A DNA stretch of 64,000 bases from Verrucomicrobiota bacterium (lineage in GTDB: Bacteria > Verrucomicrobiota > Kiritimatiellia > JAHIZV01): the NCBI GenBank assembly GCA_018814445.1, contig JAHIZV010000218.1, forward strand, positions 2,285 to 66,284, read 5' to 3'. Made by a program: the position numbers and the translations under genes. Shown here one piece after another: positions 42,398 to 62,928 of the stretch (positions within the stretch are counted from its first letter, which is position 1; each line of letters begins with the position of its first letter). The notes under the pieces were generated by a model, which was given only the letters and a program-made list of their open reading frames with translations, was not told the origin of the DNA and did not search any database.

Positions 42398-45300
42398 ATG
42401 AACAACGCTCTCAGGATGCTTAGTCAACAAGGGGGACCCCGACCCAGAAATGTCGCCGCCGTTCTCTGGGGCGTACTCCTCACTTTGACGCTGACTGCAG
42501 CACCTTGCGGACAAGCAGCGCCTTCCAACGGTGTAATTGGTGTTCTGGGTTCCTCAGTGGCCAAGGGATACAACGGCGGCGGGGGATACACCAACGGATC
42601 GTACGTCGGTGGCTATATAGGCCAGCTGACGCCAGTCCTCGAACAACGGGGATGGGGCGTTACCAATGTATCCACACCGGGAGACAATACCTCGAAGGCG
42701 TACACCAACATCTTCAACAAACTGATTCCCGCAAATCCGGACTACGCCGTTGTGGCCCTCTCCCTCGCGAACCAGGGCCTGGTCTTTTCCTCGGATCGCG
42801 AAGCCACTCTGGAATCGTTCCGCTCCGGTCTGACCAACATCCTGCACACGATCACAACAAACGGAATCCAGCCCGTTGCCGTCACCCTCGTTTATCCGTC
42901 TCAGGCGTATACGCTGGACATGTACGACTACGTGAAACGAATGAACCTCATCATTAATTCATGGGACATTCCCAGTATCAACCTGATGGGCTCACAGAAC
43001 GACGAGCAGGGCCGGTGGGTTTACGAATATATTAACGACCCGTACCACCCTACGGCCGATGGACACGCCGAGTTTTTCTACACCGTCGTCCCCACCCTCT
43101 TCGATGCCATCCGAGTGGGAAAGACCAACCGGCCGTCGCTGCCGCCCACCGGCCGGTTCATGCGTGTTACACAGGAGAGCGACCAGCCTGCACCGTTGGT
43201 TTACGAGCCGGAATACACGATGCACTCCTTTACAGCGAACTTCCAGGTCCGGACCACCGGAACCGGAACCGTTGCCGCCATCCGTTCGAGCTATACCGAG
43301 CCCCTCGTGCTGATTGACTTCGGGCCAACCAACGATGCCCTCGGGCGCGCCACTGCCAGTCCGGATGCCTATGGGAATCATTGGAACAGCTGGCGTCCGG
43401 ATTCCCTGTCTGCGGGAACTGCGTCGAACAACTTAATCGATGTCGCCGGCGCACCTACCGCTATCGACATCGCAATTACCTCTGCCTTCAGCAGTGCAAG
43501 CGGACGCTCCAGCGGGTTCGGCCTTTTTCAGCCCGAGGGTCCCGACCCCGAACTGCTGGGTTCCCTGGCCGTCGAAACTGCTACCGAGGACTACTTCCGT
43601 CTGACCAGCAGCGCTGGACTGACGCTCAGTGGACTCGACACCGGCACGGTATATACACTGCGCATTTTCGCCTGCCGCGAATCCTCTGTCATGAAGCGTA
43701 CGACGGATTTCCAGGTGACCGACCGTAATGGGTCCACCACCTATTCGATGCTGACCTCGGGTGCCAACACGGGGCGGGACGGAGCCTATGACGGCAATAA
43801 CCATCGCGCGATCGGATTCCAGGATCTATATCCGAAGACCAACGGAACACTGCTTGTCTCGCTCAGCACCACGAACGAAGGGTTCATCAGCCTCATGGAG
43901 ATCGGGCGCTCCACGCCCGTGCCGACCAACATCTATGGTACTGTGGAAGTCCGTGACAGCTCTCTGGCGTATGTATCTCCCGGCGGCGTCGAGATCACCG
44001 CGCCCGTCGACGTCAATGACGGCGCCTTCCAAGACATAAGCCTCAGCCACAACTTCGCACTGCAGCGCACGTATCTGTTTGTGAACGGCCTGCTGTACGG
44101 AACGGTTGGAGAGCGCCTTGTTCCCGATCGTTTTGTCCTCGGCGGATCGGACCAGGCCGACGCTTCCGCTGCGCCGACACAGGCAGACTACCAGGCCTGG
44201 TGTCTCTATCGTTCGTCCTGGACTCCCGGCGAAGCAATGGCGCAGCACCTGGGCGCGCTTCAACAGGCCAGCCTTGAGGTGGCGGCCCCACTGGACGACG
44301 GCGCCTTCGCGCTCGACGATCCTGTAACCAACGTTGCGCAGAGTATGGCGAGTGCATATGTTCGCGGCACCAACGTGGAGGTCGGCATCGGCCCGACACC
44401 GCCCAGTTCGTTGACCGCGCGCTCGTACGATACCGACTCGATCGAGCTTTCGTGGAACAACAACGCCGGCGGCGGCCTGGGCACGGAACTGCATCGGCGA
44501 ACAGCCGGGACGCAGTGGAACCTTGCGGCGGATCTGGGCGCCGGGGTGGCTGCTTTCACCGACACCGGTCTGGACGCCGGTGAAGAATACATCTATCGGG
44601 TCGCAGCAAAGGACGGGGCCTTGTTGAGCGGATTCTCCACCTCGATAACCGCTTCTGTCGGAGCGGACGGATCAAGCTACGAGGAATGGATGTCGGACTA
44701 TATCCCGGGCGACTTGCGAACCTGGCTGATAGACTTCAACTCAACGGTGAGTACGAACTACGGGGGCGCGGTGTGGAACACCCTCTCGAGCTGGACCGAT
44801 GCCACACCTCGCGCGTTGGTCGATACCGGCGGCGTGACAGCCGCGCGCGCATCCATAGCTCTAATAGACCCTTTCGATACGTCCCGCTCCGGCAATGGAA
44901 GCCCTCTCAGCACCAACGACTACGCGGCCGATGCGCAGAGCACGCTGTTTGTATCCACCGAGTATCTCGACGACCAACTCGATGCGGGAAAGGCCAGTAT
45001 TCGATTGAGCGGCCTGAGGCGAAGCCTCAAGTACAACGTCACCATCTTCGCCCGCCGCGGCACGGTAGTATCGGGTTTCGACTATCGGAGCCGTTATGAG
45101 GTGGAGAGTCTCAACGGTAACTCGGCCGCCGAAGTCGACACAGCCACCAACGAAAATACCGTGATGTTCGCGGATCTCTCACCGGACGCAGACGGCAATA
45201 TCACCCTCAGCATCGGTCCCGCCGACAAACCGAACGGCGCGATCTTCGCCGGGATCAGCCTGATGAAGGTCAGCGAAGTTCCGCGGGTGACCAACGACTT

Positions 45301-46222
45301 TTATCTTGTTGATTTCGCCGCTGCCGACGGCACGACTTATGATGATCCCGGCTATGTCTGGAATTCCATTCCTACCAATATGCCTGAGAGCATGGCAACA
45401 AACCTGACCAATGAGCTCGGTGACGACTCCGACGGGTACACCCTTATATTCGATAAGAAGTTCAACCAGTATCGCAGCGGCAGCGGCTCTGTGGCGGGGG
45501 GGTATGACGATGTTGCCGAGGACACCTGTTTCGCGCTGGGAAGCGTTACCACGTATGCGGCCAAGATGACCTTTGGTGGACTCAACACAAATAGTCTGTA
45601 CGACTTTCTCTTTCTCGCGCGACGGCCCAATTTCTCCTCCTTCAGCAACCTCGGATCCTACAGCTTCGAAGGCAGCGGGGAACCCGTCACCGTAGTCGTG
45701 GACGGCCGCGAGAATGAGGGTTACACCTTTGTGGGTCCTATTACCCCTGACGCAGGCGGCGAAATCTCGCTATCCGTTTCAAACATGCCCACGGCGCTGA
45801 TTCCCTTTGCCGTACTCAACGTCCTGCGCATGAGTGAGCGCACCGGTGCCGCAGGCGGAGAAGCTACACGCGGAGTTTCCGGCGATGCGGACGCAGACGG
45901 GAACTCCAATCTGAAAGAGTATATCTACAACATGAACCCCCTCGTCACGGATGCGGTGCTGTCCGGATTCGAGCCAATCCTGACCCAGTCCGGTCCGTCC
46001 CAGGTTTCGCTTTGGTATGATCGCTATCTCCCGGCGTCCGACGTTGCGTATGAGGTACAAAGTCGAACCAATCTACTGGCAGGCGTCTGGGAAACCGCAA
46101 CGGGCTTAACCGAAACAGTGGTCAACGACAACCGAACCGTCCGTTCGCTGCGGCTTGACCACGCCATCGCTGACGAAAAAGACGAGCTGTACCTCCGCTT
46201 GAGAATGGACTACGCCCCGTAG
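42398..46222 (+). CDS. Giant secreted SGNH/GDSL-hydrolase multidomain protein (paralog 1). Architecture: SGNH, 'DFG-YWNS' domain, LamG-like, FN3, 'DFG' domain x2, dockerin-like plus beta-tail. The start is uncertain (alternatives 42341 and 42416). The track ORF from 42134 overlaps the divergent gene and was rejected.
   Basis: Signal '...MLSQQGGPRPRNVAAVLWGVLLTLTLTAAPCGQA'. SGNH blocks 'GVLGSSVAKGY' (Ser), 'VTNVSTPGDNTSKA' (Gly), 'VALSLANQGL' (Asn), 'DPYHPTADGHAEF' (Asp-x-x-His). 'LVLIDFGPTNDALGRATASPDAYGNHWNSWRP ... LSGLDTGTVYTLRIFACRES ... FISLMEI'. LamG-like 'YGTVEVRDSSLAYVSPGG ... LFVNGLLYGTV'. FN3 'PSSLTARSYDTDSIELSWNN ... YIYRVAAKDG'. C-terminal 'DADADGNSNLKEYIYNMNP ... YEVQSRTNLLAGVWET ... 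ELYLRLRMDYAP'. Confidence 0.75.
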   Translation: MNNALRMLSQQGGPRPRNVAAVLWGVLLTLTLTAAPCGQAAPSNGVIGVLGSSVAKGYNGGGGYTNGSYVGGYIGQLTPVLEQRGWGVTNVSTPGDNTSKAYTNIFNKLIPANPDYAVVALSLANQGLVFSSDREATLESFRSGLTNILHTITTNGIQPVAVTLVYPSQAYTLDMYDYVKRMNLIINSWDIPSINLMGSQNDEQGRWVYEYINDPYHPTADGHAEFFYTVVPTLFDAIRVGKTNRPSLPPTGRFMRVTQESDQPAPLVYEPEYTMHSFTANFQVRTTGTGTVAAIRSSYTEPLVLIDFGPTNDALGRATASPDAYGNHWNSWRPDSLSAGTASNNLIDVAGAPTAIDIAITSAFSSASGRSSGFGLFQPEGPDPELLGSLAVETATEDYFRLTSSAGLTLSGLDTGTVYTLRIFACRESSVMKRTTDFQVTDRNGSTTYSMLTSGANTGRDGAYDGNNHRAIGFQDLYPKTNGTLLVSLSTTNEGFISLMEIGRSTPVPTNIYGTVEVRDSSLAYVSPGGVEITAPVDVNDGAFQDISLSHNFALQRTYLFVNGLLYGTVGERLVPDRFVLGGSDQADASAAPTQADYQAWCLYRSSWTPGEAMAQHLGALQQASLEVAAPLDDGAFALDDPVTNVAQSMASAYVRGTNVEVGIGPTPPSSLTARSYDTDSIELSWNNNAGGGLGTELHRRTAGTQWNLAADLGAGVAAFTDTGLDAGEEYIYRVAAKDGALLSGFSTSITASVGADGSSYEEWMSDYIPGDLRTWLIDFNSTVSTNYGGAVWNTLSSWTDATPRALVDTGGVTAARASIALIDPFDTSRSGNGSPLSTNDYAADAQSTLFVSTEYLDDQLDAGKASIRLSGLRRSLKYNVTIFARRGTVVSGFDYRSRYEVESLNGNSAAEVDTATNENTVMFADLSPDADGNITLSIGPADKPNGAIFAGISLMKVSEVPRVTNDFYLVDFAAADGTTYDDPGYVWNSIPTNMPESMATNLTNELGDDSDGYTLIFDKKFNQYRSGSGSVAGGYDDVAEDTCFALGSVTTYAAKMTFGGLNTNSLYDFLFLARRPNFSSFSNLGSYSFEGSGEPVTVVVDGRENEGYTFVGPITPDAGGEISLSVSNMPTALIPFAVLNVLRMSERTGAAGGEATRGVSGDADADGNSNLKEYIYNMNPLVTDAVLSGFEPILTQSGPSQVSLWYDRYLPASDVAYEVQSRTNLLAGVWETATGLTETVVNDNRTVRSLRLDHAIADEKDELYLRLRMDYAP

Positions 46223-46854
46223 TCCATGAGACGTCGAAGCAGGCCCAGAACCAGCCCCCCTGCGAGCAGGAGAAGGAACGATGTCGGCTCTGGAATCAGC
46301 TGCAGGTTATTGAAGAAGATGTCGTAGGGAACGCCGCTCCCGTGCGGGTCCACCTGCAGGTGCAACCAGCTCAGATCCGACAGATCAAGGCCGGGCGTTG
46401 TTCCTGGATTTCCAATGAAGCTGTCGTCAATCCCTACGGTCTGAGGTACGGGACTAATCGGGAAGGTCAGGAGATGGTGCCCGGCGGCCAGCACTTCCCA
46501 GCGGTAGTTATATTGCGTGCCGTCACCGTCCTCGAGCAGCGCAATAACGTTGGGGAAATCACCGGCATTCACATCTATGTCGAGTTCTACATCCGTCTGG
46601 CCGGACGCATCGATATTCGGATTGATGTTGTACGCGCCACCTCCGAAATTCACGGCCTGCACATTGTAGTCGTTCGGATTCGAGACAAGCGTTGCATTCG
46701 TCCAGGATGAATAAGTGAAGTCGAGATTGAAGCTGTTGAAGTCCTCAATGAGAACCGGTGCAGCCTTTGCCGGCAGAACGGAAGCCCAAACGAGGCTTGC
46801 TGCTGCAACAAGGCAAACGGTGAGTCTAAGGGACAACGTCCGATCTCGCTTCAT
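46210..46854 (-). CDS. PEP-CTERM sorting-domain secreted protein
   Basis: Strong RBS GGAAGGAGAAAG before 'MKRDRTLSLRLTVCLVAAASLVWA'. C-terminus 'LIPEPTSFLLLLAGGLVLGLLRRL'. Confidence 0.75.
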   Translation of the reverse strand: MKRDRTLSLRLTVCLVAAASLVWASVLPAKAAPVLIEDFNSFNLDFTYSSWTNATLVSNPNDYNVQAVNFGGGAYNINPNIDASGQTDVELDIDVNAGDFPNVIALLEDGDGTQYNYRWEVLAAGHHLLTFPISPVPQTVGIDDSFIGNPGTTPGLDLSDLSWLHLQVDPHGSGVPYDIFFNNLQLIPEPTSFLLLLAGGLVLGLLRRLMDYGA

Positions 46855-46909
46855 CACACTTTCTCCTTCCTCATCATCTTGACGCACGGGTACATCCTTG
46901 CGCACGCTA

Positions 46910-47527
46910 TTAGAAGATGTGTCCACTCTTGTAGAACCGGTTGGTTTCGGCACCTTCCAGCCCAAGGTCTTCGGTGGCGACCCACTCCGCATGCCCATCC
47001 AGAAATGCTATGTTGATGCCTGTTTTGTGAGGGGTGTCGTCTCCCTGGTAAGGAAAATCGTAGGCATATGCAGCTTCGGCCGGATAGAGGATGCCGCCTG
47101 ATTTCCGAATGATAGCGTCGTGGGAGCAGAGGAATCCATTCATCTCATATTGAGTGTAGAAGGCACCGTAGTTGCCTTCAGGGTCCGCTGGCACCGCACA
47201 GTTCCAATGGTCCTCAGTCCCATCGTTCGAAGGACAATTGAAGACATTCACATTGTCGTCGAGATACGGCAGAAGCTGGGCCGTCGCAGCCCCCCAGTCT
47301 ATTCCCGAATTTCCGGTGTTCCCTCGATAAGGCAATTCGGGATCTGAATCATCAAAAAGCTTAGCCGCCGCCGTCGCGATCATACGCACGTTGTTCAAAC
47401 AGTAGGTCCGCCGCCCCCTCTCCAGAATACTCGTGACGACCGGCGTGAGAAGGGCTGCGAGCAGAAGGATAATGCCCATCACGACAAGCAATTCCATCAA
47501 CGTGAATCCATGGCTGCGTTTCTTCAT
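46910..47527 (-). CDS. Prepilin-type N-terminal cleavage/methylation protein with a DUF1559 (H-X9-DG) domain (type II secretion/type IV pilus pseudopilin-like)
   Basis: 'KRSHGFTLMELLVVMGIILLLAALL' class-III signal (G|FTLxE). C-terminal 'NIAFLDGHAEWV'. The track start at 47554 adds 9 residues. Confidence 0.8.
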   Translation of the reverse strand: MKKRSHGFTLMELLVVMGIILLLAALLTPVVTSILERGRRTYCLNNVRMIATAAAKLFDDSDPELPYRGNTGNSGIDWGAATAQLLPYLDDNVNVFNCPSNDGTEDHWNCAVPADPEGNYGAFYTQYEMNGFLCSHDAIIRKSGGILYPAEAAYAYDFPYQGDDTPHKTGINIAFLDGHAEWVATEDLGLEGAETNRFYKSGHIF

Positions 47528-47579
47528 GATCTGCTGGCATGAAATCATTGCCATGTCGCTTCATCTATATCTGCGCAAC

Positions 47580-47589
47580 TTTACGTATA
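47580..47589. promoter_or_regulatory. Imperfect copy of the palindromic box (TTTACGTATA) in the divergent promoter between the pseudopilin gene and the 47646 gene
   Basis: 'CAACTTTACGTATAGCCG': 9/10 match to TTTACGTAAA. Confidence 0.3.
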
Positions 47590-50528: not shown

Positions 50529-50532
50529 GTGG

Positions 50533-51000: not shown

Positions 51001-51004
51001 GGGT

Positions 51005-54287: not shown

Positions 54288-54293
54288 CTTTGA

Positions 54294-55786: not shown

Positions 55787-55796
55787 TTTACGTAAA
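55787..55796. promoter_or_regulatory. Palindromic box TTTACGTAAA(G), site 5, in the divergent promoter between GH1 and the esterase-GH65-SGNH operon
   Basis: 'TATATTTACGTAAAGTCT'. About 110 bp upstream of the GH1 start and about 80 bp upstream of the esterase start. Confidence 0.5.
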
Positions 55797-55875: not shown

Positions 55876-56745
55876 ATGACATGCACACCTCGTTACATAT
55901 CCGCCGGTGTCCTTGGCCTGCTGGCGGGCCTCATGATTCCCGCCATTTCGGAATCCATCATGACTGACGTGCAGAGCTACAGGAAGGTTGAGAACATCGC
56001 GTACCGCGAGGGACCGGAGCTGGAGGACTATGCGCGGGAACGGTGTCGTCTGGACATCTACTTCCCCGAAGGCGCCGCAGACTTTGCCACCGTCGTGTGG
56101 TTCCACGGGGGCGGTATGACGGCAGGAGAGAAGTATGTGCCGGGTGAGCTAATGAACCAGGGAATCGCGGTCGTCGCGGCTGAATACCGATTAAGTCCGC
56201 ATGTGAACGCGCCTGCGTACATCGAGGATGCTGCGGCCGCTGTCGCCTGGGTCTTCAAGAACATCGAGCAGTATGGCGGTTCAACTCAACGGGTATTTGT
56301 CGCCGGCGCTTCTGCAGGGGGTTACCTCGCGACCATGGTCGGCCTCGACAACCAATATCTCGCGGCCCACGGCATGGACGCGAACCGGATCGCCGGACTG
56401 ATTTCGCTGAGCGGCCAGGCCATCACACATTTCACGGTTCGCGCAGAGCGCGGCATCAGCGGCACACAACCGATGGTCGACGAACTGGCTCCGCTGTTTC
56501 ACGTCCGTGGTGACGCGCCTCCTTTGCTGCTGGTCACCGGCGACCGCGATCTCGAACTCTTCGGCCGCTACGAAGAGAACGCGTATTTCCAGCGCATGAT
56601 GAAAGTAGTTGGCCATGCGGATAACGAACTGCACGAGCTTAAAGGCAGGGACCACGGCGGTGTGGAGGCGCCCGCGCACAGCCTTCTTCTCGAGTTTCTG
56701 AAAAGGATCAACAAAACCATATCAACTGCCGGAGAAACGAAATGA
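55876..56745 (+). CDS. Secreted alpha/beta-hydrolase esterase (Abhydrolase_3-type; candidate carbohydrate esterase)
   Basis: Signal peptide. 'VVWFHGGGMTAGEK' HGGG oxyanion motif. 'FVAGASAGGYLA' nucleophile elbow. ATGA overlap with the downstream GH65 gene. Confidence 0.8.
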   Translation: MTCTPRYISAGVLGLLAGLMIPAISESIMTDVQSYRKVENIAYREGPELEDYARERCRLDIYFPEGAADFATVVWFHGGGMTAGEKYVPGELMNQGIAVVAAEYRLSPHVNAPAYIEDAAAAVAWVFKNIEQYGGSTQRVFVAGASAGGYLATMVGLDNQYLAAHGMDANRIAGLISLSGQAITHFTVRAERGISGTQPMVDELAPLFHVRGDAPPLLLVTGDRDLELFGRYEENAYFQRMMKVVGHADNELHELKGRDHGGVEAPAHSLLLEFLKRINKTISTAGETK

Positions 56746-59063
56746 CTTCCAATAACCCGTGGTATGCAGAAGGTGATCCGTGGGTGCTGACCCAGACTGA
56801 GTGGACCCCGGACAAGAACATTTACTTTGAAACTGTTTTTACGCAATCCAATGGCTACATGGGCATTCGGGGCTACACGGAGGAAGTGAACGAGGGGCCG
56901 GACTCCTACCGCGAGGGATATCTCGCGGGTGTTTTCGGGCACACAGACGAAGCGGCGCTGGAGCAGACCCGGGTTACGTATGACTGGCCTATGCTGGCCA
57001 TGATTACACTGCCCGAGCTTTTCGCCTGTGAAATCGAATTGGACGGGGAGGCCTTCAAGCTTTCTGAAGGAACCGTTTCCTCATTCACCCGCTCTCTCAA
57101 CATGCGCAACGGCGTTCTCAGCCGGCACGTCGCGTGGGTCAGCCCAAAAGGCCACTGGACACACCTCGTCTTCGAGCGGTTCCTCTCGTCTGCCGTCCCG
57201 CATCTCGGCATGCAGCAGATTACCGTGACTCCCGAAAACTGGTCCGGTCCGGTCACTCTGACTTTTGGACTTGATGGCGCCATTCCGACCTACTTCCGTT
57301 GCGGCGACCGCGCGATGGCTCACGTGCCTCAGGATCTTCTACAGGATCCGCGAATCGCCGTGAGCGATGAAGGTTCAGCGACATTGACATTCAAGACAAG
57401 GGGAACCGAACACACCGTCAGCATAGCGTCCAGTGTTGCGGGCGGACCGTGCAAAACGGTCGAGTCGAGCCCGGCCGTCCTGCAGCAGAAAGCCCGCCTT
57501 TCTATCAAGGAGGGCGAATCAGCAACAGTGCTCCATTCAGTGGCCGTCGTCAGTTCGAGGGATGATGTGGATCCGTCGGATGTCCCGGAACTGGCCGCGG
57601 ACATAGCCGGTGATGCGGCGAAAGCGGGGTATGGAGAATCGTTGGCCGAGTCGGAAGCCGTCTGGGAACATCGCTGGGCGATGTCTGATGTCGTGGTCGA
57701 CGGTCCGGCAAAAGACCAGGCCTATGCCCGGTTCAGCTCTTTCAGCATGCTGCAAATGGCTCCGTTCCATACGGACAACATGAGCGTGCCTGCGCGCGCC
57801 TACGCTTTCAACCGGTATCACGGCCTCTATTACTGGGACAGCGAAACGTTCCTGATGCCTCTGTATCTCCATACGCATCCCGAGGTGGCGGAGAATCTGC
57901 TGAGCTTCCGCTACCGCACGCTCGAGGGAGCGCGGAAAACCGCGCGCCAGTTGAAAGCCCCGGGTATCTGCTTTCCGTGGATGACCGATTCTGAAGACGG
58001 CACTGAACAGGGTCCATGGAATATCGGCGACTACCTCTGGCATCAGAACGCGGACATCGCTTACGCCATCGATCAGTACGTGAAGGCCACGGGAAACACG
58101 GTGTTCATGCGCGACAAAGGCCTGGAGATGATCGTCGAGAGTGCGCGCTTCTGGATGTCCCGGCTTGAGAAAGACGAAGATGGCGTTATGCACCTGCACG
58201 ACACCGTAGGACCGGACGAACTGGACAACCACGGCAAAGACAATGGCTTCACCAGTCTGATGGCCCGCCGACATCTTCGCCTTGCCGCGCACTGGGCAAG
58301 TGAAATCCGCTCCTCCTACCCCGCCGAGGCGCAGAGACTGAGCGAAAGACTGGAGATCAGCGCGGCAGAAATCACGGGTTGGAGCCATGCCGCGGACGCG
58401 ATAGCCGCGCCCATGATTCCGGATCTGAACATCCCGCTGCAGGACGAGTTTCTGTTGGCGAAGAAGCCGCTCAGTTTCGAGGGTTTGACCGCGGACGAGG
58501 CTTTCGCGATGAGGCACACACACCGCGTCGTCAAGCAGTCAGACATCGTACTCGTCATGTACCTCCTGCAGGATGAGTTCACGGTGGAGCAGATGAGAAC
58601 TGCTTACGACTTTTACGAGCCGATGACACTTCACTACTCCTCGCTTAGCTACAACACTCATTCCATACTGGCGACCAAGATCGGCCGGGATCAACAGGCT
58701 TATGACTACTTCCTGAAGGCGGCCGGCCTGGACCTGGACAACCTGCGCGACGCAACGAGCGACGGCCTTCATGCGGCCGCTCTGGGAGGAACCTGGCAGA
58801 CGATCATGTACGGCTTTCTCGGCATGCGCTACGGGAAGGATGCCATCGTGTTTGAGCCGCGTCTTCCTGAAACCTGGAAATCCGTGTCTCTGCGGATCGT
58901 ATTCCGCGGATACGTATTGAGCCTGAACCTGACGCACGACGTTCAGCGAATTGATGTGGAGGGCTCCGAAGGACGGGGCCGACCGCGAGTGATCCTTAAC
59001 GGCGAACCCCATGTTCTAAGCGATGGTCTGAGCATCACTTCGTCAGCGAAAGTGTTGAGTTGA
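56742..59063 (+). CDS. GH65-family glycoside hydrolase/phosphorylase (kojibiose/maltose/trehalose-phosphorylase-like)
   Basis: N-terminal 'WVLTQTEW ... ETVFTQSNGYMGIRGYTEEV ... GYLAGVFG' (GH65 N-domain). A central (alpha/alpha)6-type region follows. 773 aa, no signal peptide. Confidence 0.7.
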   Translation: MTSNNPWYAEGDPWVLTQTEWTPDKNIYFETVFTQSNGYMGIRGYTEEVNEGPDSYREGYLAGVFGHTDEAALEQTRVTYDWPMLAMITLPELFACEIELDGEAFKLSEGTVSSFTRSLNMRNGVLSRHVAWVSPKGHWTHLVFERFLSSAVPHLGMQQITVTPENWSGPVTLTFGLDGAIPTYFRCGDRAMAHVPQDLLQDPRIAVSDEGSATLTFKTRGTEHTVSIASSVAGGPCKTVESSPAVLQQKARLSIKEGESATVLHSVAVVSSRDDVDPSDVPELAADIAGDAAKAGYGESLAESEAVWEHRWAMSDVVVDGPAKDQAYARFSSFSMLQMAPFHTDNMSVPARAYAFNRYHGLYYWDSETFLMPLYLHTHPEVAENLLSFRYRTLEGARKTARQLKAPGICFPWMTDSEDGTEQGPWNIGDYLWHQNADIAYAIDQYVKATGNTVFMRDKGLEMIVESARFWMSRLEKDEDGVMHLHDTVGPDELDNHGKDNGFTSLMARRHLRLAAHWASEIRSSYPAEAQRLSERLEISAAEITGWSHAADAIAAPMIPDLNIPLQDEFLLAKKPLSFEGLTADEAFAMRHTHRVVKQSDIVLVMYLLQDEFTVEQMRTAYDFYEPMTLHYSSLSYNTHSILATKIGRDQQAYDYFLKAAGLDLDNLRDATSDGLHAAALGGTWQTIMYGFLGMRYGKDAIVFEPRLPETWKSVSLRIVFRGYVLSLNLTHDVQRIDVEGSEGRGRPRVILNGEPHVLSDGLSITSSAKVLS

Positions 59064-59151: not shown

Positions 59152-62100
59152 ATGAAAGAAACCAAAACGCACGCACTTCTGCACCTCTTCTTTGTGGCCG
59201 TATTTTCTCTCACGGCTGTTTCGCACGCGGCCCCCACCAATCTCATGGTCTATGGCTCGTCGGTGGCCCGGGGCTACTCGGCCAGGGATGACTTCGGGGC
59301 ATATACCACCAACAACGGCTCCCTCGGGCTGGCTTATGCCGGCCGGCTGACCACATTGCTGGGCCGGGACGGGTGGTACGTTACCAATTCTTCTACACCG
59401 GGCGACAACACGGCCCTGGCTATCGCCGACTTCAACAGCAAAGTGGTTTCGCAGTCGCCGGATTTCGTGCTGATCGGGTTGTCTTTGGGCAATGAAGGCC
59501 TGCACTCCACGCCAAGACCGGATTCGGCCGTCAACATCTTCAGCAACGGCATGCAGGAGCTGATCGGGTTATGCAGGACGAATGATTTCTATCCAATCGT
59601 CACGCTCGTATATCCCAACAACAACTTCTACGAGCGGCACTACGACCGGGTCAAGGCGATGAATCTTGTGATGAATACGTGGGACGTCCCCAGTTTCAAT
59701 TTACTGGGCGCTCTTGATGACGGCACGGGAAAGTGGGTCGACGGATACTGGAAAGATCCATTACATCCCAATGCTGACGGACACCTTGAGTTCTTCTGCA
59801 CGTTTGTTCCCAGCCTCTTCGACGCAATCAATGCAGGAAAGACCAACAGCCCCGACATCAGCAGCGCGGTCAACTTCGCGCGCGCAACGCGGGATTTGAC
59901 CGAACCCGCTCAGATCGAGTTCGTTCCCTCCAACACCATGCACTCCTTCACGACCCGGTTCCGAGTTCGTACGACGGATACGGGCAGCGTCGCTGCCGTG
60001 CGGCTCGCACCTCCAAAGATACTTGTCGATTTCGGGCCGAACAACGATGACGACGGGCGGCGTGCTTCGGATCCTGATGAAAACGGAAACTACTGGAACA
60101 GTTGGCGGCCGATCGACGGCTATACCAATCTGAATTACATCGTCTCGGGAACCTCAACATCCGGATTGATAACTTCGGACAATCAGTCCACAGAAGTCGG
60201 CCTCGAGATCACGGAGAACTTCACGGGCGCCAACGGAATCCAGAATGGCGGGCTTGATGACCCGGATGGTCCTCAGTTCTCTCTCCTCGGCGACTTCGCC
60301 GTGGAGACAGCCACGGAAGACTATTTCTACGACGGCAATACCGCAGCCTTCAAGATCACGGGCCTCAATACCGGCAGCCTCTACACGCTGCGGTTCTTCG
60401 GGACGCGAGCCTGGTCGTCGGAGACGCGTGAGACCCGCTATGTTGCCGCGGGCGGCAATGGGCCTTTGACCAATGATCTCGTTACGTCCGGCAACAACGT
60501 CGGCAGCGACGGCGTATATGATGGCAACGATGACACGATCGTGAGCATCACGGGACTGGCCGCGACCGCGAGCGGTGTAATCACGGTCAGACTGTCCACG
60601 GTGCAGGGATCGTACAGCTACCTCGGCATTATGGAAATCGCACAGGAAACACCCGTTGTCACCAACGGTTACGGGACCATTGAAGTCCGAGACACGGAGA
60701 TCGCGTACGCATCTCCGAGCGGGTCGGAGATTACTGCTTCGGTCGATGCGAACGACGGAAGTTGGTACGACATCGCCCTTTCCCACCGATACGCGAAGCA
60801 GGAGACGCTCCTGTATGTGGACGGAGCAGAAGCCGGAACACTCTCCGAAAGCATCGTCCCTCAAGCTTTCGTGCTGGGCGGACCGGATGCGGCGGACGGC
60901 GCACCGCCATCACCTTCGACCGCCGATTACCAGGACTGGTGCGTCTACCGCGCGGCCTGGACAGAGGCAGAAGCATTGGCCCAGCATGAGGGTCATCTGC
61001 AGCAGGCCAGCCTCGAAATCTGCGCGCCGCTGAGCGACAGCACTTTTCCGCAAGGAGGCAGGGCAACGAACGAAGCACAGAGCCTCTCCGTCGTGACCAT
61101 CAACATCGACGACCTCAGCGCGACGGCTGCCGTCACGGCGCCAGGCAATCTCCAGGCCGCGTCCTACGCCCTGGACGAAGTGGAGTTGTCGTGGACGGAC
61201 AACAGCACCACCGAAAGCGGCTACGTCGTCGAACGCAGAATCAGTGAGTCAGGCGCAATGTGGACCAACATCGCAGCACTCTCTGCCGGCTCGACCTCCT
61301 ACAAGGACAGCGATGTGTCCGCAGGCATCACTTATGATTACCGGGTGTCGACCGACGAGGGAACCGTGCAAAGTGAATACTCGAATGTGGTCACCATCGA
61401 ACCGGGTGAAGACGGACAAACCTACCAGACCTGGCGCAACCGGTTCTTTCTGGCGAATGCCGGCCGCTACCTTGTAGATTTCAACACGCTCGCAAGCCCC
61501 GACTACGGCGGCGTAATCTGGAACACTGCGACCAGCCTCACCGCAATGATCTCCTACGACCTGACGGCGACCAATGGCGATGCTTCGGCCGGGTACGTAC
61601 TGACGATTACGGATGCTTTCGACCAGTTCAGGTCCGGCAACGGAAGCCCTCTGAGCGGGTTCGACAATGACGCTCAGAGCACGATCTTCGTCACAACCAA
61701 TGACACGCCGAAGATGGGTCAGGTCACGCTTTCAGGTTTGAACGACCGCTTTATCTATGACGTCACGGTTTTCGGCAGGCGCGGCTCACTCTTCGCCGGA
61801 TACGACTACCGCGCCCGGTACAACGTCAGCGGAAGAGACGGGGACATCAGTTTTGAAGTGAATACAGCCACGAACGAAATCGCCTCCCATGTATTCGGTT
61901 TGAGGCCACGGGACGGACGCATCGCCATAGACGTGGCAGCACCGGACGCGCCGACAGGCAAAGTCTTTGCCGGCGTCAGCCTGCTGGCCTTCGAGGACAT
62001 GAGTCCGGGCAACACCTTCCTTATTGATTTCAATGACCGTGCCGGCGTTACGTATCCGGACGGGCAGTCCTGGAACGTGGTCACGGGCCCTACCGCCGCC

Positions 62101-62928
62101 GCAACCTACAATCTGGTCGACGTATCCGGCAGCGCCGCAGAAGGCTTCTCGTTGACGATGAATGATGCGTTCAGTGACTCGCGTGACAAGAACGGCGGGG
62201 CAATTGGAGGATTCACGGAAGAGGCGGAGAGCGTCCTGTTCAACCTGAACGGCTTCGGAGATACCGCTCAAATGACGTTCTCCGGACTTGACGTGAGCCT
62301 GACCTACGACTTCACGTTCCTCGCGAGCAGGAGAAATCCATTCGCGTCGTCGTATGATTACAATGCGAGGTTCGTGTTCACCGGCGGCGGAGACCCGGTC
62401 ACCAGCGTCGTTGACTCCGCCGATAACGATTACTACACGCTTATCGAAGGTATTCAGCCGGACGGCGGAGGTGACATCGTTCTCACGGTCGATTCACCGC
62501 AGGATGTCGGCGGCAAAACGGAGTTCCCGGTCCTCAACCTGATTCGCATGACCGAGGAAAGCATGAGCAATACCGTGCAGTCGGCATCTTCCGATGATCC
62601 TGACGGCGACGGCATTGCCAACTTTGTTGAGTACGCACACAACTTCGACCCGACGAATACTGGTGTGAACACGTTCTCAGTGGATCAGGTCGGTGTGGAA
62701 GGCGGTGGAACAACCTTCGTCGGCTATTATGACAGGTACAAGCCGGCCCGGGAAATCACCTACGGCGTCGAAAGCACCACCAACCTTCTCGCGCCCGACT
62801 GGCAGCCCGATGCGGGTATCAGCTTGAGCGTGGTCAGCGATGCCGGCACAGCACAGACCATCAAACTGCAAAGGGCCGTGACGGAGACGACCCTCTTCAT
62901 CCGGGTCGCTACTGAATACACGCCCTGA
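59152..62928 (+). CDS. Giant secreted SGNH/GDSL-hydrolase multidomain protein (paralog 2), with the same architecture as 42398..46222
   Basis: Signal 'MKETKTHALLHLFFVAVFSLTAVSHA'. SGNH blocks 'LMVYGSSVARGY', 'VTNSSTPGDNTA', 'IGLSLGNEGL', 'DPLHPNADGHLEF'. 'KILVDFGPNNDDDGRRASDPDENGNYWNSWRP ... ITGLNTGSLYTLRFFGTRA ... YLGIMEI'. LamG-like 'YGTIEVRDTEIAYASPSG ... LYVDGAEAGTL'. FN3 'NLQAASYALDEVELSWTDN ... YDYRVSTDEG'. Two further 'LVDFN.../FLIDFN...' domains. C-terminal 'DPDGDGIANFVEYAHNFDP ... YGVESTTNLLAPDWQP ... LFIRVATEYTP'. Confidence 0.8.
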   Translation: MKETKTHALLHLFFVAVFSLTAVSHAAPTNLMVYGSSVARGYSARDDFGAYTTNNGSLGLAYAGRLTTLLGRDGWYVTNSSTPGDNTALAIADFNSKVVSQSPDFVLIGLSLGNEGLHSTPRPDSAVNIFSNGMQELIGLCRTNDFYPIVTLVYPNNNFYERHYDRVKAMNLVMNTWDVPSFNLLGALDDGTGKWVDGYWKDPLHPNADGHLEFFCTFVPSLFDAINAGKTNSPDISSAVNFARATRDLTEPAQIEFVPSNTMHSFTTRFRVRTTDTGSVAAVRLAPPKILVDFGPNNDDDGRRASDPDENGNYWNSWRPIDGYTNLNYIVSGTSTSGLITSDNQSTEVGLEITENFTGANGIQNGGLDDPDGPQFSLLGDFAVETATEDYFYDGNTAAFKITGLNTGSLYTLRFFGTRAWSSETRETRYVAAGGNGPLTNDLVTSGNNVGSDGVYDGNDDTIVSITGLAATASGVITVRLSTVQGSYSYLGIMEIAQETPVVTNGYGTIEVRDTEIAYASPSGSEITASVDANDGSWYDIALSHRYAKQETLLYVDGAEAGTLSESIVPQAFVLGGPDAADGAPPSPSTADYQDWCVYRAAWTEAEALAQHEGHLQQASLEICAPLSDSTFPQGGRATNEAQSLSVVTINIDDLSATAAVTAPGNLQAASYALDEVELSWTDNSTTESGYVVERRISESGAMWTNIAALSAGSTSYKDSDVSAGITYDYRVSTDEGTVQSEYSNVVTIEPGEDGQTYQTWRNRFFLANAGRYLVDFNTLASPDYGGVIWNTATSLTAMISYDLTATNGDASAGYVLTITDAFDQFRSGNGSPLSGFDNDAQSTIFVTTNDTPKMGQVTLSGLNDRFIYDVTVFGRRGSLFAGYDYRARYNVSGRDGDISFEVNTATNEIASHVFGLRPRDGRIAIDVAAPDAPTGKVFAGVSLLAFEDMSPGNTFLIDFNDRAGVTYPDGQSWNVVTGPTAAATYNLVDVSGSAAEGFSLTMNDAFSDSRDKNGGAIGGFTEEAESVLFNLNGFGDTAQMTFSGLDVSLTYDFTFLASRRNPFASSYDYNARFVFTGGGDPVTSVVDSADNDYYTLIEGIQPDGGGDIVLTVDSPQDVGGKTEFPVLNLIRMTEESMSNTVQSASSDDPDGDGIANFVEYAHNFDPTNTGVNTFSVDQVGVEGGGTTFVGYYDRYKPAREITYGVESTTNLLAPDWQPDAGISLSVVSDAGTAQTIKLQRAVTETTLFIRVATEYTP

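What the first reader, a model, noticed from the sequence alone, without database searches (positions are those of the whole stretch)
42398..62928. Two ~1300-aa SGNH-hydrolase paralogs with identical 8-module architecture 13 kb apart
42398..46222 and 59152..62928 align end to end: signal peptide; SGNH catalytic tetrad blocks (GSS / G / N / DxxH); 'DFG-YWNS' domain; LamG-like jelly roll; FN3; two further 'DFN' domains; dockerin-like loop; beta-tail. Identity is only moderate, so this is an ancient duplication rather than a recent repeat. One copy is promoter-proximal to a palindromic box and the other is the terminal gene of the esterase-GH65 operon. Giant SGNH proteins with three putative binding modules are unusual. 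They suggest a processive or substrate-anchored deacetylase.
Basis: seen in the sequence. Interest (0 to 1): 0.55.

Follow-up and report, generated by a model that had tools for sequence, protein, structure and literature searches.

The report
Paired giant modular SGNH esterases
Two old gene copies in a Verrucomicrobia genome encode large secreted esterases with several sugar-binding-like modules, both apparently under one LacI-type switch in an alpha-glucan-degrading gene cluster; they belong to a widespread but unstudied enzyme family, so they are interesting but not exotic.

Summary
ORFs 42398..46222 and 59152..62928 encode 1274- and 1258-aa proteins that align end to end at 41% identity, with 32-52% identity in every module.

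- **Active site:** both keep an intact SGNH site, so neither is a pseudo-enzyme. In B it is Ser37, Gly84, Asn114 and Asp202-x-x-His205; in A it is Ser53, Gly95, Asn125, Asp214 and His217.
- **Module order:** the order needs correcting. The first 'DFG' module is inserted into a hairpin of the LamG-like domain. Homologs carry 0 to about 4 tandem copies at that site.
- **DFG modules:** they form one family with no Pfam model, found in about 3,100 protein clusters. The predicted fold is a malectin-like / galactose-binding-like beta-sandwich.
- **C-terminus:** the 'dockerin-like loop' is a single thrombospondin-type-3 calcium loop. Together with the beta tail, it recurs on other secreted enzymes in this locus.
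- **Palindromic box:** it is TTTACGTAAA, a putative LacI operator with 4 exact sites against 0.57 expected. It lies before copy A and before the esterase-GH65-B genes, and it recurs in related Opitutia loci.
- **Neighbourhood:** the family's conserved neighbours are GH87, GH65, GH31 and BD-FAE esterases, which points to an esterified alpha-1,3-glucan-type substrate.

The duplication is ancient. The architecture is common in Verrucomicrobiota, and nothing supports processivity. Interest is moderate.

The parts
42398..46222 (+). Copy A, 1274 aa (NCBI KJ626_14365). Predicted signal peptide is residues 1-40, with cleavage at GQA|AP. The active site is Ser53, Gly95, Asn125 and Asp214-x-x-His217.
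   Evidence: ORF, translation, end-to-end alignment with B, Pfam GDSL_2 and fn3. The NCBI model P0022 starts at Val54 and so lacks the signal peptide and the catalytic Ser.
42518..43129 (+). Copy A SGNH catalytic domain (residues 41-244)
   Evidence: Pfam PF13472 scores 33.5 bits against a cut-off of 32.9. The family SGNH HMM gives 8.6e-81. The sequence blocks are read.
43130..44398 (+). Copy A LamG-like beta-sandwich, split by the nested DFG1 module at 43292-43927
   Evidence: Domain HMMs and the insertion-site analysis
44399..44650 (+). Copy A FN3 domain
   Evidence: Pfam fn3 at 1.8e-09, residues 668-751
44717..45835 (+). Copy A tandem DFG2 (44717-45280) and DFG3 (45296-45835) modules
   Evidence: HMM hits of 1.7e-69 and 1.5e-57 and the alignment A4
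45854..46219 (+). Copy A C-terminal TSP3-type Ca loop (DADADGNSNLKEY) plus beta tail
59152..62928 (+). Copy B, 1258 aa (NCBI KJ626_14435). Predicted signal peptide is residues 1-26, with cleavage at SHA|AP. The active site is Ser37, Gly84, Asn114 and Asp202-x-x-His205.
   Evidence: (P0001 is 100% identical),
59230..59847 (+). Copy B SGNH catalytic domain (residues 27-232)
   Evidence: Pfam PF13472 scores 41.4 bits. The AF2 model has pLDDT 91.7. Foldseek matches TesA, 4rsh and Axe2 with target-normalised TM 0.58-0.78.
59848..61131 (+). Copy B LamG-like beta-sandwich (residues 233-286 and 505-660), interrupted by the nested DFG1 module (60010-60663, residues 287-504)
   Evidence: Homologs have 0, about 210, about 422, about 632 or 859 residues at this exact site. 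Foldseek finds a pentraxin match. PF13385 is recorded on insert-free homologs.
61132..61407 (+). Copy B FN3 domain
   Evidence: Pfam fn3 at 2.8e-06 and the family HMM at 6.6e-38
61459..62553 (+). Copy B tandem DFG2 (61459-61998) and DFG3 (62011-62553) modules, with a malectin-like / galactose-binding-like fold
   Evidence: HMMs. The AF2 model has pLDDT 86. The top Foldseek hits are the tandem malectin-like ectodomains ANX1/ANX2/FER at E 3e-9, followed by CBM32 and discoidin domains.
62569..62925 (+). Copy B C-terminal TSP3-type Ca loop (DDPDGDGIANFVEY) plus a roughly 90-aa beta domain
42328..42337 (.). Putative LacI operator TTTACGTAAA in the divergent promoter region between gene C (38249..42319, -) and copy A, 61 bp before the ATG of A
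   Evidence: 4 exact sites plus 1 near-exact in the window against 0.57 expected, with 0 of 100 shuffles reaching 5. Sequence read.
55787..55796 (.). The same operator between GH1 (-) and the esterase-GH65-B gene string (+)
   Evidence: The same motif lies upstream of the SGNH or esterase genes in related loci.
35418..35427 (.). The same operator between the LacI gene and gene D. Further sites are at 34297-34306 and 47580-47589 (one mismatch).
34318..35373 (-). LacI-family regulator, the presumed repressor acting at the TTTACGTAAA boxes
   Evidence: Pfam LacI and Peripla_BP_3. Orthologs at about 41% identity sit next to the SGNH genes in L001, L002 and L004.
55876..59063 (+). BD-FAE/Abhydrolase_3 esterase (55876..56745) and GH65 phosphorylase-type enzyme (56742..59063), immediately upstream of B
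   Evidence: GH65 matches kojibiose/maltose phosphorylases at about 1e-86. The order is syntenic with L082.
35522..42319 (.). Two neighbouring secreted enzymes that carry the same DFG module and the same C-terminal tail. D (35522..38155, +) is DFG + PelZ-like pectate-lyase fold + tail. C (38249..42319, -) is DUF6259 + DFG + tail.

Best explanation
Each gene most likely encodes a Sec-exported, modular carbohydrate esterase.

**Shown:**
- The N-terminal SGNH domain is catalytically complete. Ser37 is the nucleophile, His205/Asp202 the acid-base pair, and Gly84/Asn114 the oxyanion hole.
- The SGNH domain always comes with a LamG-like beta-sandwich. This SGNH-LamG pair is the conserved core of a cross-phylum family.
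- Three copies of an unannotated beta-sandwich module ('DFG') are present: one nested in a LamG hairpin and two in tandem after an FN3 domain.
- The module's predicted fold is malectin-like / galactose-binding-like.
- A TSP3 calcium loop plus a small beta domain ends the protein. The same ending is found on other secreted enzymes of the locus.
- The palindrome TTTACGTAAA lies before copy A and before the esterase-GH65-B genes, and next to a LacI gene.

**Inferred:**
- The DFG modules tether the esterase to its polysaccharide by a proximity effect. The FN3 domain acts as a spacer.
- The C-terminal tail serves surface retention or export.
- The adjacent LacI repressor co-regulates both copies with GH87 alpha-1,3-glucanase, GH65 phosphorylase, GH1, a GH71/99-like enzyme, a PL1-like enzyme, a DUF6259 enzyme and a BD-FAE esterase.
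- The enzymes strip O-acyl (probably acetyl) groups from an alpha-1,3-glucan-type or glucose-rich polymer so that the glycosidases can act.
- The two copies have diverged in SGNH loop residues and probably differ in which ester positions or sub-structures they accept.
For: **Catalytic competence:**
- GSS, NxSxxGDxT, GNEG and DxxH are invariant or nearly invariant in 23 family members.
- They align with TesA blocks II and III; block V aligns in the best-matching SGNH chain, 9hi6.
- Both copies pass the Pfam GDSL_2 cut-off.
- The AF2 model has pLDDT 91.7 and pTM 0.82. Its best Foldseek matches are RiCE17 (an acetyl-mannan esterase with SGNH + CBM35), TesA and Axe2.

**Export:** both N-termini have a charged n-region, a hydrophobic core and an AxA-type site followed by AP(S/T)N.

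**Core and nesting:** homologs from Bacteroidota, Acidobacteriota and Gammaproteobacteria match residues about 28-651 with no DFG insert. Verrucomicrobial homologs have 0 to about 4 DFG copies at the same hairpin.

**DFG as a mobile binding-type module:**
- The 8 copies in the window are mutually homologous.
- There are 3,105 clusters at E<=1e-3, usually with 2-6 copies per protein.
- Of 49 other DFG proteins, 13 carry GDSL_2, 7 Lipase_GDSL, 4 DUF4886, 11 a T9SS sorting domain and 2 PEP-CTERM.
- Stand-alone DFG proteins exist, some with PEP-CTERM anchors.
- Stand-alone DFG genes also follow the SGNH gene behind their own operator boxes.
- The fold matches tandem malectin-like, CBM32 and discoidin domains.

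**Regulon:** the palindrome is enriched. It sits in promoter regions and is conserved upstream of orthologous SGNH, esterase and LacI genes in L001-L006.

**Substrate context:**
- GH87, GH65 (+HAD), GH31, DUF5010, GH71/99-like and BD-FAE esterase genes recur around family members.
- GH87 matches solved alpha-1,3-glucanases at 1e-66, and GH65 matches phosphorylases at about 1e-86.
- A GH87 + GH65 nigerose phosphorylase + GH31 + LacI cluster is a published precedent (PMC9061262).

**Divergence of A:** A deviates at 29 of 189 family-conserved columns against 11 for B, and 13 of these lie in SGNH loops.
Against: - No enzymatic, binding, localisation or expression data exist for any member of this family.
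- The SGNH domain is only remotely similar to characterised esterases: 10-20% identity, with profile E-values of 1e-4 to 4e-6. Substrate class therefore cannot be read from homology.
- The DFG fold assignment rests on a two-domain model with low overall TM (0.2-0.37) and about 10% identity. The tandem arrangement may bias the ranking towards tandem malectin-like proteins.
- There is no sequence-level link to any CBM or lectin family.
- Alpha-1,3-glucans are not known (to my knowledge) to be esterified. The locus also contains PL1-like, GH1 and GH16-type genes, so the polymer may be something else.
- Repressor-operator pairing is inferred from position and conservation only.
- The promoter and terminator scans were not above chance. 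Co-transcription of B with the esterase and GH65 genes is therefore assumed; an 88-bp gap separates GH65 from B.
Confidence: 0.6

Rival explanations
1. The proteins are esterases, but the DFG modules do not bind glycan. They would be structural spacers or cell-surface display and protein-protein interaction modules, comparable to Ig-like or FN3 stalks. Their role would be to hold the catalytic head away from the outer membrane or to assemble a surface enzyme complex.
For: - The modules have no sequence similarity to any CBM or lectin family.
- The only sequence echo is an FN3-like GLxPxxxY motif.
- They co-occur with Ig, FN3 and cadherin-like domains and with sorting signals such as the T9SS domain and PEP-CTERM.
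- Plant malectin-like ectodomains, the best structural match, bind peptides rather than glycans in the solved FER-RALF complex (6a5e, listed).
Against: - The modules are attached to different catalytic domains of one glycan locus: SGNH, PL1-like and DUF6259.
- Copy number varies from 0 to about 4 at a site next to the catalytic core.
- Stand-alone operator-controlled copies occur in the same regulons.
- W-N, D-F and Y residues are conserved.

All four points are typical of CBMs rather than of inert spacers.
Confidence: 0.2
2. The SGNH domain acts on non-polysaccharide esters, such as lipids, lysophospholipids, acylated small sugars or glycolipids. Alternatively, it works as an acyltransferase rather than a hydrolase.
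For: - JGI names family members 'lysophospholipase L1-like esterase'.
- The only NCBIfam hit is TesA/lysophospholipase L1, far below its cut-off.
- TesA is among the best structural matches.
- Some SGNH proteins are transferases (review PMC9487903).
Against: - Those names reflect superfamily-level similarity only (18 bits against a cut-off of 270).
- The neighbourhood is consistently catabolic CAZymes under a sugar-type LacI regulator.
- The best Foldseek match is a polysaccharide acetylesterase with the same SGNH + beta-sandwich layout.
- No MBOAT or AT3 partner of the kind used by SGNH acyltransferases was seen in the genes scanned.
Confidence: 0.12
3. Copy A is a redundant, decaying duplicate on its way to becoming a pseudo-enzyme. 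Only copy B would be functional.
For: - A is the long branch in the tree.
- A deviates at 29 of 189 family-conserved columns. This includes block III, where GNEG has become ANQG, and the loop before block V.
- A's Pfam score barely passes the cut-off (33.5 against 32.9).
- NCBI's gene model for A lacks the catalytic Ser.
Against: - The full-length ORF is intact over 1274 codons.
- All five catalytic and oxyanion residues are retained.
- dN (0.58) is far below the saturated dS (2.35), which indicates long-term purifying selection in every module.
- A has its own operator box 61 bp upstream.
- The NCBI truncation is a start-codon call. An in-frame ATG with a proper signal peptide lies upstream.
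Confidence: 0.05

Closest known systems
RiCE17 from Roseburia intestinalis (CAZy CE17; PDB 6HFZ/6HH9), a two-domain acetyl-mannan esterase
   Same: It has an N-terminal SGNH catalytic domain followed directly by a beta-sandwich domain. It is the best Foldseek match of the B 27-660 model, at E 2e-9 with about 500 aligned columns. It acts on a decorated polysaccharide inside a glycan-utilisation locus.
   Different: Identity is only 10-12%, and the profile E-value is 1.8e-4. The partner domain there is CBM35, not LamG. The relative domain orientation differs (RMSD about 20 A). RiCE17 has no nested module, no FN3, no tandem DFG modules and no TSP3 tail. It is about 370 aa against about 1260 aa here.
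CE20 carbohydrate esterases (Fl8CE20_II, PpCE20_II; PMC12313940)
   Same: They are SGNH esterases in which an ancillary beta-sandwich domain helps form the active-site cleft. They also show a domain-insertion theme.
   Different: In CE20 the beta-sandwich is inserted into the SGNH domain, and the triad is water-mediated. Here the SGNH domain is contiguous, it has a classical DxxH, and the insertion is in the neighbouring LamG domain. No sequence comparison with CE20 could be run.
E. coli TesA / classical GDSL-SGNH hydrolases (PDB 1IVN, 1JRL) and Geobacillus Axe2
   Same: The fold is the same, and blocks I, II, III and V carry the same residues.
   Different: Those enzymes are single-domain and periplasmic or intracellular. 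The similarity is at superfamily level only (15-20% identity).
Malectin / malectin-like domains (CAZy CBM57; plant CrRLK1L ectodomains ANX1, ANX2 and FER)
   Same: The tandem DFG2-DFG3 model matches tandem malectin-like domains best, at E 3e-9 to 1e-7. From my own knowledge rather than a test here, animal malectin recognises Glc-alpha1,3-Glc, the linkage targeted by the GH87 and GH65 enzymes of this locus.
   Different: There is no detectable sequence similarity. TM scores are low (0.2-0.37). Generic galactose-binding-like folds such as CBM32, discoidin and reelin score almost as well. Ligand binding is untested.
GH87 / GH65 nigerose phosphorylase / GH31 / LacI gene cluster of Lachnoclostridium phytofermentans (PMC9061262)
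   Same: The same combination of enzyme families and a LacI regulator recurs around the SGNH giants.
   Different: The section of PMC9061262 that describes that cluster names no esterase, and the word 'esterase' does not occur in the paper. The Opitutia loci add one or two BD-FAE esterases, the SGNH giant, DFG proteins and pseudopilin-like genes.

Membership tests
SGNH/GDSL hydrolase superfamily (Pfam PF13472 Lipase_GDSL_2) | Block I Gly-x-Ser nucleophile motif at the end of the first beta-strand | tested here: met
   B has VYGSSVARGY and A has VLGSSVAKGY. G35, S36, S37, V38 and G41 are invariant in 23 sequences. The motif has the same register as TesA GDSLSAGY, which I read from my own knowledge of the TesA sequence.
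SGNH/GDSL hydrolase superfamily (Pfam PF13472 Lipase_GDSL_2) | [quoted passage not shown] | tested here: met
   N79-x-S81-x-x-G84-D-x-T87 and G-N114-E-G (ANQG in A) are present, with G84 and N114 invariant. Both blocks align to TesA SGDTS and GGNDGL.
SGNH/GDSL hydrolase superfamily (Pfam PF13472 Lipase_GDSL_2) | Block V Asp-x-x-His | tested here: met
   B has D202-P-L-H205 and A has D214-P-Y-H217. H205 is invariant and D202 is at least 90% conserved. The block is aligned to DGVHPN of an SGNH structure.
SGNH/GDSL hydrolase superfamily (Pfam PF13472 Lipase_GDSL_2) | Score above Pfam's gathering cut-off and an alpha/beta/alpha SGNH fold | tested here: met
   The scores are 41.4 bits (B) and 33.5 bits (A) against a cut-off of 32.9. 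The AF2 model of B matches TesA, 4rsh and Axe2 with target-normalised TM 0.58-0.78. A was not modelled.
SGNH/GDSL hydrolase superfamily (Pfam PF13472 Lipase_GDSL_2) | Ester hydrolysis activity | not testable with these tools
   This needs a recombinant enzyme assay.
CAZy carbohydrate esterase families with an SGNH fold (CE2, CE3, CE6, CE12, CE16, CE17, CE20) | Significant sequence similarity to a characterised member of the family | tested here: not met
   Only superfamily-level matches were found to the solved SGNH esterases that came up: RiCE17 at 1.8e-4 and Axe2 at 1e-4, and no phmmer hit at E<=1. The CAZy/dbCAN HMMs themselves were not available, so this is not an exhaustive test.
LamG / concanavalin-A-like lectin domain (Pfam PF13385 Laminin_G_3) | Sequence match to the Pfam model, or a jelly-roll fold | tested here: inconclusive
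   A and B have no Pfam hit at E<=0.1. Insert-free homologs P0039, P0043 and P0091 carry a precomputed PF13385. The model shows an all-beta domain, and Foldseek lists a pentraxin (3flp) at E 5e-7.
Fibronectin type III | Pfam fn3 match above the cut-off | tested here: met
   The scores are 38.1 bits (A) and 27.9 bits (B) against a cut-off of 25.
Malectin / CBM57 | Sequence match to the Malectin or Malectin_like Pfam models | tested here: not met
   The full proteins gave no such hit at E<=0.1, and the 8 isolated DFG domains gave none at E<=10.
Malectin / CBM57 | Malectin-like beta-sandwich fold | tested here: inconclusive
   The best Foldseek hits are tandem malectin-like ectodomains, at E 3e-9 and probability 1.0. 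TM is only 0.2-0.37, and other galactose-binding-like folds score close behind.
Malectin / CBM57 | Binding of a glycan ligand | not testable with these tools
   This needs glycan arrays, ITC or affinity gels.
Dockerin (type I) | Two tandem roughly 22-residue Ca-binding F-hand segments, and a Pfam Dockerin_1 match | tested here: not met
   Each protein has only one DxDxDGxxNxxEY loop. Dockerin_1 gave no hit at E<=0.1. Homologous tails carry PF18884 TSP3_bac instead.
LacI-family repressor regulon | A palindromic operator with a central CG in promoter regions, next to a LacI gene and conserved in orthologous loci | tested here: met
   TTTACGTAAA occurs 4 times exactly and once with one mismatch, against 0.57 expected. 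All sites are intergenic, and four of the five lie between a gene start and its upstream neighbour. The LacI gene is at 34318..35373. The same box sits upstream of SGNH, esterase or LacI genes in L001-L006. Protein-DNA binding itself was not tested.

The most novel reading that the evidence does not exclude
The DFG module may be an unrecognised, malectin-like carbohydrate-binding module family of about 3,100 clusters with no Pfam model. Its copy number would be tuned by insertion into a LamG hairpin beside the active site. On this reading the SGNH-LamG core founds a new carbohydrate-esterase family. That family would be a conserved component of LacI-controlled alpha-1,3-glucan (GH87/GH65/GH31) utilisation loci in Opitutia. 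The implication is that the natural alpha-glucan-type substrate of these bacteria is O-acylated, a decoration not currently considered for alpha-1,3-glucan turnover.
Probability: 0.22. Interest if true: 0.6.

Novelty: new variant of a known kind. Interest (0 to 1): 0.38.

Why it matters
Multi-modular carbohydrate esterases are a familiar kind of enzyme, so nothing categorically new is involved. This family, however, has no characterised member, and it offers three concrete handles.

- **An esterase core.** The SGNH-LamG core is conserved across phyla and has no solved or assayed relative.
- **An unannotated module.** The DFG beta-sandwich family is large, has no Pfam model, and is preferentially attached to SGNH-type esterases. 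It could be defined as a new binding module.
- **A testable regulon.** A LacI repressor, a 10-bp operator, GH87, GH65, GH31 and several esterases are conserved together. This suggests that environmental Verrucomicrobiota degrade an esterified alpha-glucan-like polymer. If confirmed, it would add an esterase step to alpha-1,3-glucan turnover and supply new enzymes for work on fungal cell walls or biofilm glucans.

There is also a practical point. The public gene model of copy A is truncated and lacks the catalytic serine.

Tried and rejected
- **Single-sequence PDB search.** A phmmer search with the SGNH domain found nothing at E<=1. A family profile was needed.
- **Family libraries.**
  - NCBIfam gave no family for A.
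  - For B it gave only a far sub-threshold TesA hit.
  - Pfam and PDB profile searches with the DFG domain gave only an FN3-like GLxPxxxY motif echo in titin and fibronectin, with zero significant stretches. I rejected that as a motif coincidence.
- **Word-index homolog searches.** Searches with the DFG and tail profiles returned mostly short or fragmentary proteins. They were useful for PEP-CTERM and TSP3_bac co-occurrence, but not for counting. The exhaustive HMM search supplied the family size.
- **Repeat finder.** The repeat finder missed the palindromic box because its arms are only 5 nt. I found it by eye and tested it with the DNA search.
- **Promoter and terminator scans.** Neither was above the shuffle expectation. 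I make no claim about transcription units beyond gene spacing.
- **dN/dS.** dS is saturated at about 2.3, so the ratio of about 0.25 indicates only long-term constraint.
- **Literature.** Searches for a characterised SGNH-LamG or malectin-linked bacterial esterase found nothing relevant.
- **Dockerin reading.** Rejected, because there is a single Ca loop and no Dockerin_1 hit.
- **Pseudo-enzyme reading of copy A.** Rejected, because the tetrad is intact.
- **Lipoprotein signal in A.** I considered a lipobox in LTAAPC. It is non-canonical, and the cleavage context GQA|AP mirrors SHA|AP in B.

Full report

Yes. The window holds a 1362-codon open frame at 42134..46222 and an ORF at 59152..62928, both on the + strand.

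This is a plausible signal peptide.
- Its predicted cleavage context mirrors that of copy B, MKETKTHALLHLFFVAVFSLTAVSHA|AP.
- BLASTP aligns the 1274-aa and 1258-aa products over 1275 columns with 41% identity, 58% positives and 48 gaps.
- Per-module identity is 32-52% everywhere, so the similarity is not low-complexity.
- The genes are 12.9 kb apart.
- The window matches a 66.9-kb contig of a 'Verrucomicrobia bacterium' MAG. B is KJ626_14435 (100% identical) and A is KJ626_14365, both annotated 'hypothetical protein'.

**2. Anatomy**

*SGNH domain*
- Pfam detects only Lipase_GDSL_2 at the N-terminus and one fn3 domain in each protein.
- In a 23-sequence family alignment, the following are invariant or at least 90% conserved:
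  - G35-S36-S37-V38-x-x-G41 (block I)
  - N79-x-S81-x-x-G84-D-x-T87 (block II)
  - G-N114-E-G (block III)
  - D202-x-x-H205-P (block V)
- A family profile aligns blocks II and III to E. coli TesA (SGDTS, GGNDGL). It aligns block V to DGVHPN of another SGNH structure.
- These are the residues that define the superfamily and its mechanism (review PMC9487903).
- Copy A keeps all of them: S53, G95, N125, D214 and H217.
Both copies look catalytically competent.

*Structure of residues 27-660 of B*
- An AlphaFold2 model has pLDDT 91.7 and pTM 0.82.
- Its best PDB matches are RiCE17, TesA and Axe2, all at 10-20% identity.
- RiCE17 (6HFZ/6HH9) is a two-domain SGNH + CBM35 acetyl-mannan esterase.
- No single-sequence PDB hit exists. 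This is a divergent SGNH subfamily.

*Nested DFG1 module*
- The segment after SGNH is a LamG/concanavalin-like beta-sandwich, but it is discontinuous.
- The strands ...TMHSFTTRFRVRTTDTGSVAAVR and YGTIEVRDTEIAYASPSG... are adjacent in many homologs. This holds in all Bacteroidota members examined and also in P0002, P0020, P0034 and P0037-39.
- In A and B they are separated by about 210 residues.
- In other homologs the separation is about 422, about 632 or 859 residues.
- The first 'DFG-YWNS' domain is thus an insertion into a LamG hairpin, at a site that holds 0 to about 4 tandem copies across the family.
- Insert-free homologs carry Pfam Laminin_G_3, and Foldseek lists a pentraxin.

*The DFG family*
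- DFG1, DFG2 and DFG3 are mutually homologous. The DFG2 HMM hits DFG3 at 7e-42 and DFG1 at 1.6e-14.
- The same module occurs in two adjacent genes.
  - D (35522..38155) combines it with a PelZ-like pectate-lyase region.
  - C (38249..42319, - strand) combines it with DUF6259.
- The eight window copies share L-[VI]-D-F-[GN], G-x-x-W-N, A-x-x-D-Y-F and G-L-[DN]-x-x-x-x-Y motifs.
- A profile of these copies finds 3,105 proteins at E<=1e-3 and 1,364 at E<=1e-10 among 1.84 billion cluster representatives. Most have 2-6 copies.
- Neither Pfam nor PDB sequences give a real match.
- Of 49 other DFG proteins scanned:
  - 13 carry GDSL_2, 7 Lipase_GDSL and 4 DUF4886
  - 11 end in a T9SS sorting domain and 2 in PEP-CTERM
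- Short DFG proteins, some ending in PEP-CTERM, also exist.
- The AF2 model of B 765-1258 has pLDDT 86.
- Its best matches are the tandem malectin-like ectodomains of ANX1, ANX2 and FERONIA, at E 3e-9 to 1e-7. Reelin, CBM32, discoidin and allantoicase-type tandem jelly rolls follow.
- I read this as a galactose-binding-like / malectin-like beta-sandwich. It is the sort of fold used by carbohydrate-binding modules, but there is no proof of binding.

*C-terminus*
- It contains one DxDxDGxxNxxEY loop plus about 90 residues of beta structure.
- The same ending occurs on C, on D and on the CotH/lamin-tail protein at 27229..32103.
- Homologous tails elsewhere carry Pfam TSP3_bac and sit on Verrucomicrobiota and Kiritimatiellae proteins, including S8 peptidases.
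- It is not a dockerin: there is a single loop and no Dockerin_1 hit.
- In Bacteroidota relatives, a T9SS sorting domain sits at the C-terminus.
- I infer that the tail serves export or surface retention.

**3. Regulation and context**

*The palindromic box*
- It is TTTACGTAAA at 42328-42337, 61 bp before the ATG of A.
- It occurs four times exactly and once with one mismatch, against 0.57 expected. None of 100 shuffles reached 5.
- Each site is intergenic, and all but 34297 lie between a gene start and its upstream neighbour:
  - 34297, between the LacI gene and the upstream end of the TPR-GH71/99-like genes
  - 35418, between LacI and D
  - 42328, between C and A
  - 47580, before the pseudopilin and PEP-CTERM genes
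  - 55787, between GH1 and the esterase-GH65-B string
- A LacI-family gene lies at 34318..35373.
- The identical box recurs directly upstream of the orthologous SGNH, esterase, LacI and small DFG genes in Opitutia/Ruficoccus-type loci L001-L006. It is absent from the other 75 fetched loci.
- The LacI orthologs in those loci are about 41% identical.
- Both paralogs therefore appear to belong to one conserved LacI regulon.
- B is followed after 85 bp by a GntR-HTH/PBP regulator gene. The closest syntenic locus, L082, has the same arrangement: LacI, MFS, esterase, GH65, GH65, HAD, SGNH, GntR/PBP, esterase, GH87 giant.

*Gene neighbourhood*
- Across family members the neighbourhood repeatedly contains:
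  - BD-FAE/Abhydrolase_3 esterases
  - GH65
  - GH31 and DUF5010
  - GH87 (CatAgl_D1/D2) proteins
  - a GH71/99-like protein
  - GH16
  - an MFS transporter
  - pseudopilin-like N_methyl proteins
- The window's GH87 matches solved alpha-1,3-glucanases at 1e-66. Its GH65 matches kojibiose and maltose phosphorylases at about 1e-86.
- A cluster of GH87 + GH65 nigerose phosphorylase + GH31 alpha-1,3-glucosidase + LacI is described for L. phytofermentans (PMC9061262).
- An alpha-1,3-glucan or nigero-oligosaccharide pathway is therefore the most consistent reading of the locus.
- What is added here is a set of esterases, including the SGNH giants.

**4. Evolution**

- B is closer to proteins of other organisms (P0002 51%, P0006 48.5%, P0020 47.6%) than to A (41%), and it clusters with them. 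A sits on a long sister branch.
- dS is saturated at 2.35 and dN is 0.58. The duplication is old and both copies have stayed under constraint.
- A departs from 29 of 189 columns that are at least 90% conserved in the rest of the family, against 11 for B. Thirteen of these lie in the SGNH domain.
- The SGNH departures include block III (GNEG to ANQG) and the loop before block V. This fits altered specificity rather than decay.
- A genome scan finds three tiers of relatives:
  - the full architecture, in Opitutia and other Verrucomicrobiota
  - shorter variants, in Luteolibacter, Haloferula, Akkermansiaceae, Kiritimatiellia and Lentisphaerae
  - the SGNH-LamG core alone, in Bacteroidales, Vicinamibacterales, Gammaproteobacteria, Phycisphaerales and Polaribacter
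- The architecture is therefore common, not unusual.

**5. Most likely mechanism**

*Shown*
- A complete SGNH active site.
- Signal-peptide-like N-termini.
- A conserved SGNH-LamG core.
- Mobile, variable-copy DFG modules.
- A shared C-terminal tail.
- An enriched and conserved palindrome next to a LacI gene.
- A conserved CAZyme neighbourhood.

*Inferred*
- The proteins are exported and probably retained at the surface.
- The DFG modules tether the esterase to its polymer.
- The SGNH domain removes O-acyl groups so that GH87 and the other depolymerases can act.
- LacI derepresses the whole set in response to a breakdown product.
- A and B cover different ester positions or sub-structures.

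Nothing supports processivity. I put confidence in this overall picture at about 0.6. By part: roughly 0.9 that these are active secreted SGNH hydrolases, about 0.7 that the substrate is a glycan ester, about 0.55 that DFG is a true carbohydrate-binding module, and about 0.35 that the polymer is an alpha-1,3-glucan type.

**6. Comparison with known systems, and novelty**

- The proteins work like modular carbohydrate esterases. RiCE17 (CE17) is the nearest structural analogue, and CE20 is another case where a beta-sandwich shapes the SGNH cleft.
- Membership in the SGNH superfamily is met on every sequence and fold criterion tested.
- Membership in a specific CAZy CE family is not supported by the comparisons I could run. 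dbCAN was not available.
- The malectin resemblance is at fold level only.
- I class the finding as a new variant of a known kind. It is an uncharacterised esterase family with an unannotated, nested, copy-number-variable module and a conserved regulon.
- It is of moderate interest (0.38). It would be more interesting if the DFG module proves to be a new alpha-glucan-binding CBM and the substrate an acylated alpha-glucan.

Noticed in passing
window 34297-34306, 35418-35427, 42328-42337, 47580-47589, 55787-55796; also L001, L002, L004, L005, L006: A 10-bp perfect palindrome, TTTACGTAAA, marks at least five intergenic regions around a LacI gene (4 exact sites and 1 near-exact, against 0.57 expected). 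It is conserved upstream of orthologous genes in other Opitutia loci. It looks like the operator of a conserved LacI regulon covering about a dozen genes.
   Followed up: yes
window 42398-42559 (5' end of copy A): The public NCBI gene model for copy A (KJ626_14365, 1221 aa) starts at the GTG codon of Val54. It therefore omits the signal peptide and the catalytic Gly-Ser-Ser motif. The upstream in-frame ATG at 42398 (or 42416) restores both.
   Followed up: yes
window 59848-61131 and homologs P0002-P0049: The hairpin of the LamG-like domain is a hot-spot for domain insertion. Homologs carry 0, about 210, about 422, about 632 or 859 residues there, which corresponds to 0 to about 4 tandem DFG modules at exactly the same position.
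   Followed up: yes
window 35522-38155 (+) and 38249-42319 (-): Two neighbouring large secreted proteins carry the same DFG module and the same TSP3 + beta tail. One has a PelZ-like pectate-lyase region (NCBIfam 4.4e-16, far below its cut-off). The other has DUF6259. L006 holds a 52%-identical ortholog of the DUF6259 protein next to a GH65 gene.
   Followed up: partly
window 27229-32103 (+): A 1624-aa protein has five lamin-tail domains and a CotH kinase-like domain. It ends in the same C-terminal TSP3 + beta tail as the esterases. It is preceded by two right-handed beta-helix proteins (24742..25869 and 25869..27092).
   Followed up: no
window 46210-47554 (-): Directly downstream of copy A, on the opposite strand, lie two genes behind an operator box. 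One is a prepilin-type N-methylation (pseudopilin-like) protein. The other is a small secreted protein ending in a PEP-CTERM-like anchor motif (read by eye; Pfam gave no hit). The N-terminal domain of the PEP-CTERM protein is found fused to the BD-FAE esterase in L002 and L004.
   Followed up: partly
L001 13882-14583, L002 13893-14597: In related loci the gene right after the SGNH giant is a stand-alone DFG-domain protein of about 233 aa. It is preceded by its own TTTACGTAAA box.
   Followed up: partly
window 48212-53470 (-): The GH87 alpha-1,3-glucanase gene is followed on the same strand by an ORF that looks MotA/ExbB-like, two that look ExbD-like, and a 644-aa coiled-coil-rich protein with no Pfam match. 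The ExbB and ExbD labels come from reading the translations, not from a family search. The arrangement resembles a TonB-type energy-transduction set embedded in the glycan locus.
   Followed up: no
window 63013->64000 (+): A hybrid regulator gene (GntR-type HTH plus a LacI-type periplasmic-binding-protein domain) starts 85 bp after copy B and runs off the window. The same gene follows the SGNH gene in L082.
   Followed up: partly
window 12805-15660 (-): A GH13 / CBM48 pullulanase- or isoamylase-like protein carries an N-terminal TSP3_bac repeat. It is embedded among housekeeping pantothenate, lysine and arginine biosynthesis genes.
   Followed up: no
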